A DNA stretch of 64,000 nt from IMG/VR virus record IMGVR_UViG_2877948078_000003; one strand, 5' to 3'. Of the stretch, positions 1 through 4,064 are shown piece by piece. The notes under the pieces were generated by a model. It was given only the letters and a program-made list of their open reading frames with translations, had not been told where the DNA came from and did not search any database. Both the position numbers and the translations under genes were made by a program. Position 1 is the first letter of the stretch. Each line of letters starts with the position of its first letter. This DNA comes from a virus. Its lineage: Duplodnaviria > Heunggongvirae > Uroviricota > Caudoviricetes.

Positions 1-588
1 ATGAATACAGCTATAACTTTTTCTAACGAGTCACCAAAAGTCTTTTTCAAAGATGGTCGCTTGGTAACCACCTCTCAAGCTGTTGCCGACTACTTCGACA
101 AACAACATAAACACGTTTTAGCTAAGATTGACGCACTCGACTGCTCTCCTGAATTTACATCAGCCAACTTTTCGGCTGATGTTCAAACTGTCGAAATTGG
201 CAACTGCGCAGAACGTGAATCACGATGCTACCTGATCACAAAAGACGGCTTCATGTTCCTCGTGATGGGATTTACTGGCAAAAAAGCAGCCAGACTAAAA
301 GAAGCTTACATTGCAAAATTTAACGCAATGGAAGAAGTACTCCACAAACAACCACAAACAACCACAAACAACCACAAACAACCACCAACAGCACAAAACT
401 CCCCACCCCCAAATGATGGGTGCGCATTATTGATCCACTTCGATAAACACGGGCAGGTCGAATTCACGGAAAAAGTACCCGCCTATGCGATGGTATGCAC
501 TCTGGAACGGTTTAAATTTTATCTGGAGCAACACGGCTGGATCGTTGCCCGTAAAGAACAACTGGTAGAACGGTTGATGCGGTTGTAA
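1..588 (+). CDS. Rha-family phage regulatory protein (antirepressor-like)
   Basis: 195-aa ORF; N-terminal segment VTTSQAVADYFDKQHKHVLAKI fits the Rha-domain pattern as I remember it; C-terminal part unassigned. Confidence 0.6.
   Translation: MNTAITFSNESPKVFFKDGRLVTTSQAVADYFDKQHKHVLAKIDALDCSPEFTSANFSADVQTVEIGNCAERESRCYLITKDGFMFLVMGFTGKKAARLKEAYIAKFNAMEEVLHKQPQTTTNNHKQPPTAQNSPPPNDGCALLIHFDKHGQVEFTEKVPAYAMVCTLERFKFYLEQHGWIVARKEQLVERLMRL
342..391. repeat. 10-bp tandem repeat CCACAAACAA, four perfect copies plus one degenerate, inside the Rha-like CDS
   Basis: Read directly at 342-391; encodes the HKQPQTTTNNHKQPP linker. Confidence 0.9.
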
Positions 589-1367
589 TGATTGCAAAAC
601 CCCGGATGATCACCAGGGTTAATTTTATCGAGCGTGATTGCCGCTAATCGCCATCTCTCTGATTGAGCGTAAATCATCCTGGTTATGCTGTTCTTCCTTC
701 ATCTCACGCTGGCGTTGACAAACCTCGTCATTGCGATCGACCTGCGCCTGAACCATTGCAGTAAGCAGCTCATCCAGTTGTTGTCTTGGCAGATTGCAAA
801 ACATGTGATAACAATATGTTTACAAAAGAAAAGCATACTTTTGTGATGCTTTTTTATACCGTTTCATACATTTTTAACTGCCTGATTTTGTTAAAGTCTT
901 TTTTATTTTGCAGTGTCTTATCCCTTCCTTTATAGATCACTTCATCAAAAACAGAGAGGTCAATGTTGACGTAATTGTCACAGGCGCCAGCAATGATAGG
1001 CTCTCAATTTTAAGAGCCGTAGATAAAGAGCCAGCACGTACGTTCATTAAGGAAACGCTTCAAAATGTCTGGGAAAAAATACGGACTTCCGGAAATCTGA
1101 AAAATCATCCATATCAACAGGATGCACGAAAAATGAGAGTTCCGTCACTTCCGGAATTAACTTTTCCGTGGCACTATTTACCCGGCATAGTGTATATCTT
1201 CACAATAATGACATAATCAACGCAGTTCATGGGGGAAGTGATGGTCCCCCATCTTTTTGTCTGTTATTTCTCCCCCCTGTATGCCTGTATCTCATCTGCA
1301 CTGCTCAGCGTTTCCAGCCCCTTACCGTGCTACACTGGCGGTTCTCACCTGACTGCCGTCGTTCTCT

Positions 1368-3290
1368 TCACGATATACGCTGAAACAGCCCCACACAGTA
1401 AGGGTATATTGAACTGACCTGAAGTGGACTACAGACCCGCCATGTTCCTGGCAATGTATTACCGGTTAATGTGGCTGCTTTCTGAGAGCCCAGTTGAATG
1501 CTACATTCTCTCAGTTTACTTCCCGCAAGCACGGCACCTGCGGCATATTTTTCACTGTTACTTATACTGGCCTGAGCAAAGACAAATGCCCCAACAGCAT
1601 GCAAACCACCTGCCGGTGAGCCAGCTGGTCCCTGTGGGCCTGTTGCCCCCCGGGGACCGGGATCACCTTTATCCCCTTTAGCTCCCTGTGGCCCGGTTGC
1701 GCCGGTGGCACCTTTCTCACCCTTTGCCCCGGGAGCGCCAGTATCCCCTTTTGGTCCCTGTGGCCCGGTTGCGCCGGTGGCTCCTTTCTCACCCTTTGCC
1801 CCGGGAGCGCCAGTATCCCCCTTTGGTCCCTGAGGGCCGGGATCACCTTTATCCCCTTTTGCTCCCTGTGGCCCGGTTGCGCCGGTGGCTCCTTTCTCAC
1901 CTTTTGCCCCGGGAGCGCCAGTATCCCCCTTTGGTCCCTGAACGCCCCCCGGCCCAGCCGGACCTGCTGGCCCCGTGTCCCCTTTATCTCCTTTCGGACC
2001 GGGAACACCACCTCCTGCAGCAGCCTCTTCTGCCTTTGTTTTCGCTTCATTTGCCACATCCATTGCCGCCTTCACGGCCTTCGGCGTGGCTGCCTTTGTT
2101 TCGTCATTACTGTTAGTATCACTGCTTAACTGCACCACGCCTTTCTGCGTCGTGCTGGCATCCCGCTGGCTGACCGTATCCGGTTTGTTCTTTGTGCTGT
2201 AATCCACCCGCCAGTGGAAATACTGTGTGTCGCCGTAAACCGTACAGGTACAGACCGTGCCATTAATAAACCCCGTTGCACCGTATTCGCCAATGGTGAC
2301 CCGGACTATGGCTGCCTCATACTTCCCCATCACCTCAATGACACAGCCACCCAGATTAAGTTTTCCCGGTCCGACATCCGTGATGACCTTATTGAATCCC
2401 GCATGCAGTGATGCCTTCATCATCCAGTAAGGCTGGTCAAATGCCCCTTTGGCTTTCAGCCAGGCGACAAACTCGGTCGTGGTCCATTCACCGGCCCCCG
2501 TATGAATGTCCCGCCCGTATACTCTGGCTGCTCCCACAGTGTTCAGAAACTGCACCTTATCCGGGATATCGTCACCGTTTTTCGCTTTCTCCAGGCATCC
2601 GTCCGCTTTGCCCATTGCCGCTTTCACCGCTTTCGGGGTGGCTGCCTTCGTTTCATCATCACTGTCCGTTGCGCTGCTTAACTGCACAATTCCCTTCTGT
2701 GCCGTCGTCGCATCCGGTCCTCCCGGCTCGCCTTTTTCGCCCTTCTCTCCCCGTTCACCTTTCACACCCTGAAGCCCCTGCGGCCCCCTCTCACCACGCT
2801 CACCCTTTGGCCCCCGCTCGCCGGTATCGCCTTTTGGCCCGGGAATACCCTGTGGCCCCGTGTCTCCCTTATCCCCCTTCGGTCCCCTCGCATTCTCTGC
2901 CCGTTTCTTCGCTTCCTCTGCACTCGCCGCTGACGCTTCCGCACGTTTCAGGATTTCCGCGGCCACCGCTTCCAGCTCTGCAAGGGCTTTCGGGTAATAC
3001 TGTGCGTCCTCCAGGTCCATCAGAAATTTATTCAGCGTTCCCGGTGCAGAGTCCGCCTTCACCAGAATGTCACCCACATATGACGGCGCGTACCCTTCCG
3101 TGTTCAGCGTCACCCGGTACAGACCCGGCTCAACATCCATACTGTAACTGCCGGTTTCCCCCGGCTGACCATACGCCACCGTGGTGACAATCACCGTCTC
3201 CGTTGTGCGTCGCGCTTTCAGCTCTATCGTGCATCCCGGTACCGGCTTACCGGCCCCGTCCTTCAGCACACCAGAAATTTTAACCGTCAT
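1368..3290 (-). CDS. stf: Side tail fibre protein with collagen-like Gly-X-Y repeats, probably 3'-truncated or recombined
   Basis: N-terminus [16 protein letters not shown] and the [24 protein letters not shown] motif resemble lambda Stf; long [11 protein letters not shown] repeats; last ~70 aa look non-fibre-like and no tail fibre assembly gene follows. Confidence 0.7.
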
Positions 3291-3302
3291 ACCTTTCCAC
3301 CA

Positions 3303-3336
3303 ATAAAAAAGCCCGCAGCAGTAATGCCACGGGCTT
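3303..3336 (-). terminator. Intrinsic terminator between lom and stf
   Basis: Minus-strand hairpin AGCCCG..CGGGCT followed by TTTTTTATTGG. Confidence 0.45.
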
Positions 3337-3440
3337 CAGGACAGTGTAACTTTACGTTTCCTCAGACGCAGTTCACCCCATAAGGTGGATGAACATGCTC
3401 ATTATACCAATATTTACAGAAGATAAAGCTGTATCTGCCG

Positions 3441-4064
3441 TCAGAAACGGTATCCAATCCCAACAATAAACGCATCCGTTCGCCAGTCACCATGACCGGC
3501 CACTTCGTACGCAAGATCAACCGCCACCGTATCCGCCAGATTAAACTGAAGTCCTGCCCCCCATGCCAGCGTCAGATGACGTGCAGAATGACCATCACTG
3601 GCAGTGGTGGTCACCCTGACATCCCCCGGTGTCACTTCATCACGCCGGTAATCCTGAACACTGTCAGACCAGCGGGTGTGCGCCATCCCGGCCATGCCAT
3701 AAAGGCTGAGCTGCTCACTGACCTGCCAGACCGGCCCCGCCATCAGGCTCACATAACGGCCACGCAGACTTTCATAATGAAATGCCTTATCCCCGGTCAT
3801 CGTGGTTCTGCTCTTTTTCGCAGAGGCGTAACTCAGCGAGGCTATGCCGCCCAGATGGTCCGTGAATTCATAACGGTATTTCACGTTGATCCCTTTTAAA
3901 TCACCTGTACGGGCACCGGTACCGGACAATACCGGCACGCCGCCCGGGTGAACCTGAGCATATCCCACGGAAAATGCACCGTGTCCGCCTGCAGCCTGTG
4001 CAGGAAAAGTCATTACTGCCGGCAGGGTGGTAAAAAATAAAATGGCTCCGTATAAATACCGCAT
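3441..4064 (-). CDS. lom: Lom outer membrane protein (Ail/Lom family)
   Basis: Strong similarity to lambda Lom over the whole length (NVKYRYEF, AWGAGLQFN, GDWRTD, FIVGIGYRF); signal peptide; start at internal ATG 4064 with AAGAGG SD. Confidence 0.9.
   Translation of the reverse strand: MRYLYGAILFFTTLPAVMTFPAQAAGGHGAFSVGYAQVHPGGVPVLSGTGARTGDLKGINVKYRYEFTDHLGGIASLSYASAKKSRTTMTGDKAFHYESLRGRYVSLMAGPVWQVSEQLSLYGMAGMAHTRWSDSVQDYRRDEVTPGDVRVTTTASDGHSARHLTLAWGAGLQFNLADTVAVDLAYEVAGHGDWRTDAFIVGIGYRF

What the first reader, a model, noticed from the sequence alone, without database searches (positions are those of the whole stretch)
589..1367. Unassigned AT-rich region left of the tail fibre with a 59-aa minus-strand ORF and plus-strand terminators
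A 59-codon minus-strand ORF (625-804, MFCNLPRQQLDELLTAMVQAQVDRNDEV.., below the ORF-track cut-off) and two plus-strand hairpin plus T-run elements (826-852 AAGCAT..ATGCTT-T6; 1229-1262 ATGGGGG..CCCCCAT-CTTTTTG) lie between the Rha-like gene and the truncated tail fibre. This may be a recombination scar or the edge of another element.
Basis: seen in the sequence. Interest (0 to 1): 0.25.

Follow-up and report, generated by a model that had tools for sequence, protein, structure and literature searches.

The report
Decayed prophage junction, not a gene
The stretch is leftover DNA at the end of an E. coli prophage inserted in ompW: stubs of three dead genes, a fossil copy of the phage attachment-site arm and one old terminator, which is ordinary prophage decay.

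Summary
The same 779 bp occurs at 99.9-100% identity in 12 complete E. coli genomes, beside an ompW-integrated lambdoid prophage. NCBI's annotation pipeline (PGAP) already marks two pseudogenes there.

- **59-aa ORF (625-804, minus):** the last 57 codons of a 195-aa DUF4376 tail-fibre-associated gene, of the phage P27 L57 type. Its ATG lies past the homology break and has no Shine-Dalgarno sequence.
- **787-913 (GC minimum, 33%):** a diverged copy of the phage arm that elsewhere sits directly against the ompW attachment sequence. It is a fossil prophage edge, joined to the DUF4376 stub through 9 bp (TGGCAGATT) that resemble both parents.
- **944-1075:** a dinI-like fragment missing both ends.
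- **1229-1259:** a conserved plus-strand terminator that follows dinI-like in phage 1720a-02.
- **1264-1326:** a second DUF4376 stub of about 20 codons.
- **Hairpin 827-855:** AT-rich and not conserved in five homologous arms, so probably not a terminator.

Related strains have deleted 699-967 cleanly, so nothing there is under selection. The "recombination scar or edge of another element" reading holds. Interest is low.

The parts
1..588 (+). Rha-family regulator gene. It is context: part of the older ash-rha-DUF4376 module next to the att site.
   Evidence: Pfam Phage_pRha E = 2.8e-26 and TIGR02681 E = 1.3e-22. PGAP calls it a Rha family transcriptional regulator. The same order, ompW'-ash-rha-DUF4376, is seen in strains K_EC180 and H105.
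598..620 (.). Inverted repeat between the convergent rha and DUF4376 stop codons. It is a candidate shared terminator, weakened here by one stem mutation.
   Evidence: The minus-strand RNA folds at -13.1 kcal/mol (z = -2.2) and the plus strand at -8.8 (z = -0.1). Relatives K_EC180 and H105 have the perfect stem CCCCGG/CCGGGG. The terminator scan does not report it.
625..795 (-). DUF4376 pseudogene stub 1: the last 57 codons of a roughly 195-aa tail-fibre-associated gene.
   Evidence: BLASTP against the intact 195-aa protein of K_EC180 aligns residues 139-195 at 72% identity, E = 5e-27. DNA homology ends near 795. tblastn hits the C-terminus of phage P27 L57. PGAP annotates 625-777 as a DUF4376 pseudogene missing its N-terminus. 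There is no Shine-Dalgarno sequence before the ATG.
787..913 (.). Fossil attachment-site arm (equivalent to the lambda P arm on the tail-fibre side) of an ompW-integrating lambdoid phage. The 9 bp at 787-795 (TGGCAGATT) are the junction overlap.
   Evidence: It is 75-80% identical to arms that directly abut the ompW att sequence in SCU-204 (L008 3998-), 2013C-3181 int-side junction (L010 4760-) and 2013C-3181 outer junction (L001 4950-5079). The GC minimum of 33% falls here.
827..855 (+). It is probably not a functional terminator.
   Evidence: Folds at -10.0 kcal/mol with only 2 G-C pairs. The scan does not report it. The homologous segments of five other arms fold at -1.1 to -7.0 kcal/mol with different structures.
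944..1075 (+). dinI-like pseudogene fragment covering only the middle 44 codons.
   Evidence: 29 of 44 residues are identical to residues 31-74 of the intact 82-aa DinI-like protein of phage 1720a-02, E = 2e-18. The Pfam DinI score of 16.7 bits is below the 24.2 cut-off. PGAP annotates 959-1075 as a DinI-like pseudogene missing both termini. A 108-bp deletion relative to 1720a-02 removes the 3' end at 1076.
1229..1259 (+). Intrinsic-terminator-like hairpin with a T-run. It is the relic terminator that lies between the convergent dinI-like and DUF4376 genes in phage 1720a-02.
   Evidence: The scan reports 8 pairs, 5 of them G-C, then CTTTTTG. The stem is invariant and only the loop varies in RM10466, 2014C-3097, phage 1720a-02 and 88-3493. 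There is no T-run on the minus strand.
1264..1326 (-). DUF4376 pseudogene stub 2: about 20 C-terminal codons (..LETLSSADEIQAYRGEK*) of a different DUF4376 gene, carrying a 9-bp deletion.
   Evidence: DNA alignment with the intact DUF4376 genes of RM10466 and phage 1720a-02. The intact C-terminus is ..LESLSSADEILAYRVGWAQE*. Homology ends around 1323-1335.
1327..1367 (.). 3' flank of the tail-fibre gene, which travels with the fibre's 3' end.
   Evidence: Window 1324-1640 is at least 98.7% identical in 35 of 5426 genomes. One of these is a prophage at potB in strain 88-3493, where homology runs from 1076 into the fibre gene.
1368..3299 (-). Collagen-repeat tail-fibre gene. It is context.
   Evidence: Pfam phage_tail_N E = 1.5e-41, Phage_fiber_2 and Collagen. 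PGAP annotates an intact 643-aa protein.

Best explanation
Window 589-1367 is non-coding debris at the tail-fibre end of a lambdoid prophage integrated in ompW. It is built from two prophage ends laid one on the other.

**Left part (to about 795).** This belongs to an older module next to the att site, in the order ompW'-arm-ash-rha-DUF4376. Only the last 57 codons of the DUF4376 gene survive.

**Right part (from about 787).** This is the original end of the lambdoid phage:
- its att arm;
- a dinI-like gene that has lost both ends;
- that gene's terminator;
- about 20 codons of the phage's former DUF4376 gene;
- the present tail-fibre gene.

**The joint.** The two parts meet in a 9-bp overlap, TGGCAGATT, that resembles both the end of the ompW att core and the DUF4376 gene.

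**Most likely history (inferred).** Two ompW phages sat in tandem or nested. Everything between a core-like sequence in DUF4376 and the inter-prophage att site was then deleted, by integrase or by microhomology-mediated recombination. Small deletions followed.

**Function.** None of the ORFs is functional. At most the 1229-1259 hairpin, and perhaps the 598-620 repeat, still stop transcription from running antisense into the tail-fibre operon.
For: - **Identity and annotation:** identical DNA lies next to ompW' in 12 complete genomes, with PGAP pseudogene calls at 625-777 and 959-1075.
- **Stub 1:** it matches the C-terminus of intact DUF4376 proteins (E = 5e-27) and phage P27 L57. Homology stops near 795.
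- **Arm:** 787-913 (up to 1076 in two cases) is homologous to three arms that directly abut the ompW att sequence. The closest relative, 2013C-3181, has ompW prophages in tandem, with int-ompW'-arm-dinI' at the next junction.
- **Literature:** a 121-bp att sequence for ompW prophages, tandem ompW prophages and prophage-in-prophage integration are published (PMC8112680).
- **dinI fragment:** E = 2e-18 against an intact phage DinI-like protein.
- **Stub 2 and terminator:** both align with RM10466 and phage 1720a-02.
- **No selection:** RM10466 and 2014C-3097 have a clean deletion of 699-967, which removes most of the ORF and the whole arm.
- **No expression signals:** there is no Shine-Dalgarno sequence before the ATG and no Rfam hit.
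Against: - No intermediate genome was found with an intact DUF4376 gene, an int gene and a full ompW att sequence followed by this arm. The arm occurs at 90% identity or more only in the 12 genomes that share the junction. The order of events is therefore inferred.
- The window starts at rha and is interrupted by a Mu-like prophage from about 28.5 kb. Neither the ompW junction nor the int end of this genome was seen, and the context comes from relatives that are 99.8% identical over 24.7 kb.
- A 7-of-9 match to the core is expected by chance somewhere in a 590-bp gene, so the overlap does not prove that integrase was involved.
- No expression data exist, so silence of the ORFs is inferred.
Confidence: 0.85

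Rival explanations
1. The junction at 787-795 is a live secondary attachment junction. On this reading the lambdoid phage integrated by its own integrase into a core-like sequence inside the DUF4376 gene of a resident prophage (prophage-in-prophage), and it can excise from there, leaving the ash-rha-DUF4376' relic behind.
For: - The breakpoint falls exactly at the arm-proximal end of the ompW att sequence.
- Intact DUF4376 genes carry TGACAG(T/C)TT where attB has TGACATGTT, a 7-of-9 match.
- Prophage-in-prophage integration is documented for ompW prophages (PMC8112680).
Against: - In 2013C-3181 the int side of the prophage is followed by a normal ompW' sequence plus the arm of a third prophage, not by the 5' part of DUF4376.
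- Almost all of the 121-bp att sequence is missing at the internal junction.
- A 7-of-9 match is expected by chance somewhere in the gene.
Confidence: 0.15
2. The 59-aa ORF, or the 102-aa ORF at 908-1216 that contains the dinI-like segment, is a genuine small gene retained for function. Examples would be a mini-DinI that modulates RecA or a C-terminal DUF4376 peptide.
For: - Both frames are open.
- The region is 99.9-100% identical in 12 genomes.
- A weak promoter-like site lies at 786-815 on the plus strand.
Against: - Both ORFs align only to internal or C-terminal parts of longer proteins.
- The ATG at 802-804 lies in junction sequence and has no Shine-Dalgarno sequence.
- The acidic C-terminal end of DinI (TADDWFIH) is deleted.
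- Related lineages delete 699-967.
- Pfam and NCBIfam give no hit above threshold.
- One promoter-like site was found where 2.5 are expected by chance.
- Identity among the 12 genomes reflects recent common descent, not selection.
Confidence: 0.04
3. The region is an ordinary phage b-region or moron locus assembled by homologous recombination among lambdoid phages. On this reading there was never a second integration event, and the arm-like segment was inherited as a passenger.
For: - Lambdoid phages are highly mosaic.
- The module 1076-1367 plus the tail fibre also occurs in a prophage at potB.
- The truncated dinI next to the arm is shared by three arm lineages that are about 75% identical, so that joint is old.
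Against: An arm that is otherwise found only directly against the ompW att sequence must at some time have been a phage end. This rival therefore differs from the best explanation only in when and where the fusion happened.
Confidence: 0.3

Closest known systems
Lambda-like prophages integrated in ompW (PPompW), with tandem and prophage-in-prophage clusters in Shiga-toxin-producing and enteropathogenic E. coli (Nakamura et al. 2021, PLoS Pathog, PMC8112680)
   Same: - The integration locus is the same.
- An att sequence derived from the ompW 3' end lies next to an AT-rich arm at the tail-fibre end.
- Several ompW prophages sit side by side in the closest relative.
   Different: - The window has no type III secretion effector genes between the tail fibre and the arm.
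- It lacks the 21-bp attB-in-PP_1 sequence.
- The internal junction has lost the 121-bp att sequence except for about 9 bp.
Phage P27 L57 and DUF4376 (PF14301) tail-fibre-associated proteins
   Same: The 59-aa ORF aligns with their C-terminal 50-57 residues at 51-72% identity. In P27 and K_EC180 this gene lies in the last few genes before the attachment site, next to the tail-fibre genes.
   Different: Only 57 of about 195 codons remain. The Pfam domain itself spans residues 73-177 of the intact protein and is not detectable in the stub.
Prophage DinI-like proteins (PF06183), for example AGR48330.1 of phage 1720a-02
   Same: The position is the same, between the att/int region and the convergent DUF4376 and tail-fibre genes. 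Identity is 66% over 44 residues.
   Different: About 30 N-terminal and 8 C-terminal residues are missing, and the score is below the Pfam cut-off.
Lambda attR (POB') and the b-region
   Same: It is an AT-rich arm lying between the tail-fibre genes and the crossover core, in the position of the lambda P arm. This comparison rests on established knowledge of the lambda map.
   Different: The integrase family target and the arm sequence are different. Here the bacterial side (B') is replaced by a gene stub from another prophage. No integrase or IHF binding sites were identified.

Membership tests
DUF4376 (PF14301) protein | Pfam domain hit above the gathering score | tested here: not met
   The 59-aa ORF gives no DUF4376 hit. 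Intact relatives score 63-65 bits against a cut-off of 25.
DUF4376 (PF14301) protein | Sequence homology to bona fide members | tested here: met
   BLASTP E = 5e-27 with 72% identity to residues 139-195 of the 195-aa K_EC180 protein. DNA identity to the 3' ends of annotated DUF4376 genes in about 470 genomes is mostly 80-95%.
DUF4376 (PF14301) protein | Full-length open reading frame with its own start | tested here: not met
   Homology ends near 795, and the ATG at 802-804 lies in unrelated junction sequence with no Shine-Dalgarno sequence.
DinI-like family (PF06183) | Pfam hit above the gathering score and a full-length protein of about 80 aa | tested here: not met
   The score is 16.7 bits against a cut-off of 24.2, covering profile positions 22-58 of 63. 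Both termini are missing relative to the 82-aa protein of phage 1720a-02.
Intrinsic (Rho-independent) terminator | G+C-rich stem-loop followed by a T-run, conserved in homologues | tested here: met
   For 1229-1259: 8 pairs, 5 of them G-C, then CTTTTTG. The stem is invariant in four relatives. Termination itself was not tested.
Intrinsic (Rho-independent) terminator | The same criteria applied to the 827-855 hairpin | tested here: not met
   It has only 2 G-C pairs and the scan does not report it. The structure is absent from five homologous arms.
Attachment site of ompW-integrating lambdoid phages | Arm sequence homologous to arms that flank confirmed ompW junctions | tested here: met
   Identity is 75-80% over 127-292 bp, with E from 3e-15 to 5e-51, to three junction arms.
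Attachment site of ompW-integrating lambdoid phages | The 121-bp ompW-derived identity segment next to the arm | tested here: not met
   Only TGGCAGATT remains. The sequence to its left is DUF4376, not ompW. The 121-bp figure comes from PMC8112680.
Attachment site of ompW-integrating lambdoid phages | Integrase and IHF binding, and recombination activity | not testable with these tools
   This needs excision PCR or in vitro recombination.
Exchangeable effector locus of lambdoid prophages | Type III secretion effector genes between the tail fibre and the att site, plus the 21-bp attB-in-PP_1 sequence | tested here: not met
   There is no annotated intact gene in 589-1367, no family hit for its ORFs other than the two fragments, and no copy of the 21-bp sequence with up to 3 mismatches in the window.

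The most novel reading that the evidence does not exclude
The 787-795 joint would record, or still support, integrase-mediated integration of an ompW-type lambdoid phage into a core-like sequence inside the DUF4376 tail-fibre-accessory gene of a resident prophage. That would be a further attB-in-prophage site beyond the three described in PMC8112680.
Probability: 0.15. Interest if true: 0.3.

Novelty: already known. Interest (0 to 1): 0.1.

Why it matters
It matters little beyond annotation. The 59-aa ORF should not be called a gene.

The prophage boundary in this family is composite. A 1.7-kb relic (ash-rha-DUF4376') lies between ompW and the real end of the lambdoid prophage. The unannotated fossil att arm marks where one element ends and the other begins.

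This helps when delimiting prophages and reconstructing tandem or nested integrations at the ompW hotspot in Shiga-toxin-producing E. coli.

Tried and rejected
- **Family searches on the small ORFs:** Pfam and NCBIfam on the 59-aa ORF and on the plus-strand ORFs at 1168-1383 and 1229-1417 gave nothing meaningful.
- **RNA families:** an Rfam scan of 1-3600 at E up to 1 gave no hit.
- **Second copy in the window:** a BLAST of 589-1367 against the whole window found none.
- **Far end of the prophage:** I tried to read it in the window. This failed because the window departs from strain 2013C-3181 after 28.5 kb, where a Mu-like prophage is inserted. The int-side junction could therefore only be examined in the relative.
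- **Tail-fibre C-terminus:** tblastn of the last 120 residues against the phage collection found no match, partly because collagen repeats are masked. I did not settle whether the fibre is truncated.
- **attB-in-PP_1:** the 21-bp sequence is absent.
- **11-bp direct repeat:** GATTGCAAAAC at 590-600 and 792-802 brackets stub 1. I considered it as a recombination signature and set it aside. Of composition-matched shuffles, 8% contain such a repeat, and the left copy is native to the lineage.
- **Promoter-like site at 786-815:** rejected as evidence of expression, because one site was found where 2.5 are expected.

Full report
**Observation**

The 59-codon minus-strand ORF is at 625-804 with the quoted translation. 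The second hairpin, ATGGGGG...CCCCCAT at 1229-1252 followed by CTTTTTG, is picked up by the terminator scan with 8 pairs, 5 of them G-C.

The first hairpin has AAGCAT at 831-836 and ATGCTT at 846-851, with Ts running to 855. It folds at -10.0 kcal/mol (z = -2.4) but has only two G-C pairs, so the scan does not report it.

GC drops to 33% at 801-1000. The flanking genes are a Rha-family gene at 1-588 and a collagen-repeat tail-fibre gene at 1368-3299 on the minus strand.

**Where the sequence comes from**

The 779 bp occur at 99.9-100% identity in 12 of 5426 complete E. coli genomes. In strains 2013C-3181 and EH41 the order is trpA-yciG-yciF-yciE-ompW' (3' remnant)-small ash-like ORF-rha-[this region]-tail fibre-lom-J. 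This is the tail-fibre end of a lambdoid prophage in ompW.

PGAP already annotates window 625-777 (minus) as a DUF4376 pseudogene missing its N-terminus. It annotates 959-1075 (plus) as a DinI-like pseudogene missing both termini.

The window is 99.8% identical to 2013C-3181 over its first 24.7 kb. It diverges after 28.5 kb, where a Mu-like prophage is inserted. Context to the left of the window, and at the int end, therefore comes from relatives.

**Segment 1: 589 to about 795**

About 470 genomes match 589-779, mostly at 80-95% identity, and every match falls on the 3' end of an annotated DUF4376 gene. In strain K_EC180, which carries an Stx2e prophage remnant at ompW, the order is ompW'-ash-rha-DUF4376, with DUF4376 intact at 195 aa.

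The 59-aa ORF aligns with residues 139-195 of that protein at 72% identity, E = 5e-27. It also aligns with the C-terminus of phage P27 L57. The intact protein carries PF14301 at residues 73-177. The stub alone gives no Pfam hit.

DNA homology stops near 795, so the ATG at 802-804 lies in unrelated sequence. No Shine-Dalgarno sequence precedes it.

Between the convergent rha and DUF4376 stop codons lies an inverted repeat at 598-620. It forms a perfect stem in K_EC180 and H105 and carries one stem mutation here.

**Segment 2: about 787 to 913, the AT-rich core**

In distant mode, 790-975 matches about 97 phylogroup-B2-type genomes at 80% identity. The match lies immediately beside their ompW' remnant.

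Alignments show that this segment is a diverged copy of the phage arm that directly abuts the ompW-derived att sequence at three places:
- the SCU-204 junction;
- the junction behind the int gene of the 2013C-3181 prophage;
- the outer ompW' junction of the same prophage as the window.

K-12 ompW shows where bacterial homology ends...CCACACTG ACATGTT. A 121-bp att sequence for ompW prophages, tandem ompW prophages and prophage-in-prophage integration were determined experimentally and by comparison in PMC8112680.

In 2013C-3181 the int gene is followed by ompW'-arm-dinI' and then a third prophage. Tandem occupation of ompW is therefore real in this lineage.

The window's internal arm is thus a fossil phage end. 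It is joined to the DUF4376 stub within TGGCAGATT (787-795). That 9-mer matches arm-side cores at 8 of 9 positions and intact DUF4376 genes at 7 of 9. This much similarity is expected by chance somewhere in a 590-bp gene, so it fits integrase action at a pseudo-core and microhomology-mediated deletion equally well.

Its counterparts in five homologous arms fold at -1.1 to -7.0 kcal/mol with different structures. I therefore do not regard it as a conserved terminator.

**Segment 3: 944-1075**

The frame of the 102-aa ORF (908-1216) matches residues 31-74 of the intact 82-aa DinI-like protein of phage 1720a-02. Identity is 29 of 44 residues, E = 2e-18. The Pfam DinI score of 16.7 bits is below the 24.2 cut-off.

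The N-terminal truncation is shared with the SCU-204 arm and the 2013C-3181 int-side arm, which are about 75% identical over 787-1076. That truncation is therefore old. The C-terminal end is removed by a 108-bp deletion at 1076 relative to 1720a-02.

**Segment 4: 1076-1367**

This block is 92-96% identical in RM10466, 2014C-3097, phage 1720a-02 and a potB prophage of strain 88-3493.

It contains the 1229-1259 hairpin. The stem is invariant and only the loop varies. In 1720a-02 the hairpin lies between the convergent dinI-like and DUF4376 genes, and it has a T-run only on the plus strand. It is best read as the dinI-side terminator that shields the tail-fibre genes from antisense read-through.

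Positions 1264-1326 are the last 20 or so codons of a second, different DUF4376 gene (..LETLSSADEIQAYRGEK*, against ..LESLSSADEILAYRVGWAQE*). This stub carries a 9-bp deletion. Homology to DUF4376 ends around 1323-1335.

The remaining flank travels with the 3' end of this tail fibre, which is at least 98.7% identical in 35 of 5426 genomes. PGAP treats the fibre as intact. I could not confirm or refute truncation.

**Evidence against function**

- RM10466 and 2014C-3097 have a clean deletion of window 699-967. It removes two thirds of the ORF, the whole arm and the first hairpin.
- Rfam finds nothing.
- One promoter-like site was found where 2.5 are expected.

**Conclusion**

The region is a layered scar. 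The stub of an older att-proximal module (ash-rha-DUF4376') is fused at a core-like 9-mer to the original arm-dinI'-terminator-DUF4376' end of the lambdoid prophage.

The small ORF is not a gene, and only one of the two hairpins looks like a real terminator.

The order of events, tandem or nested integration followed by deletion, is inferred. No intermediate genome was found. The finding is ordinary prophage decay at a known integration hotspot.

Noticed in passing
window about 28,507 to 64,000 (runs past the window end): A Mu-like transposable prophage (transposase, Gam, Mor, Mu-type head, sheath, baseplate) is inserted into the lambdoid prophage. Collinearity with strain 2013C-3181 stops inside the gene annotated there as a SASA-family carbohydrate esterase. 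The best matches elsewhere are 97-98% identical Mu-like prophages at other chromosomal sites.
   Followed up: partly
window 342-390 (inside rha): There is a 10-bp tandem repeat, CCACAAACAA, in 4.9 copies at 97% match inside the Rha coding sequence. The Rha proteins of K_EC180 and H105 are 10 aa (30 nt) shorter. Copy-number changes that are not multiples of three units would shift the frame.
   Followed up: no
L010 4628-9490 (strain 2013C-3181, beyond the int gene of the homologous prophage): The closest relative carries a second ompW' remnant, another arm and dinI-like fragment, then an S6-family autotransporter peptidase, a YadA-like adhesin gene, an IS66 element and a third prophage's DUF4376 and tail-fibre genes. 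This is a tandem prophage array at ompW with virulence-type cargo at the junction.
   Followed up: partly
window 590-600 and 792-802: An exact 11-bp direct repeat, GATTGCAAAAC, brackets the DUF4376 stub. Of composition-matched shuffles, 8% contain such a repeat, so it is probably chance.
   Followed up: yes
window 24,725 (compared with L009 24,734-26,063): Strain 2013C-3181 has an IS3-family element splitting a beta-family protein gene near the terminase genes. The window lacks this insertion.
   Followed up: no
window 1650-1950: The collagen-like part of the tail-fibre gene is built from 72- and 108-bp tandem units at 93-97% match. It is likely to vary in length by recombination: fibre lengths of 334 to 664 aa are seen among relatives.
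   Followed up: no
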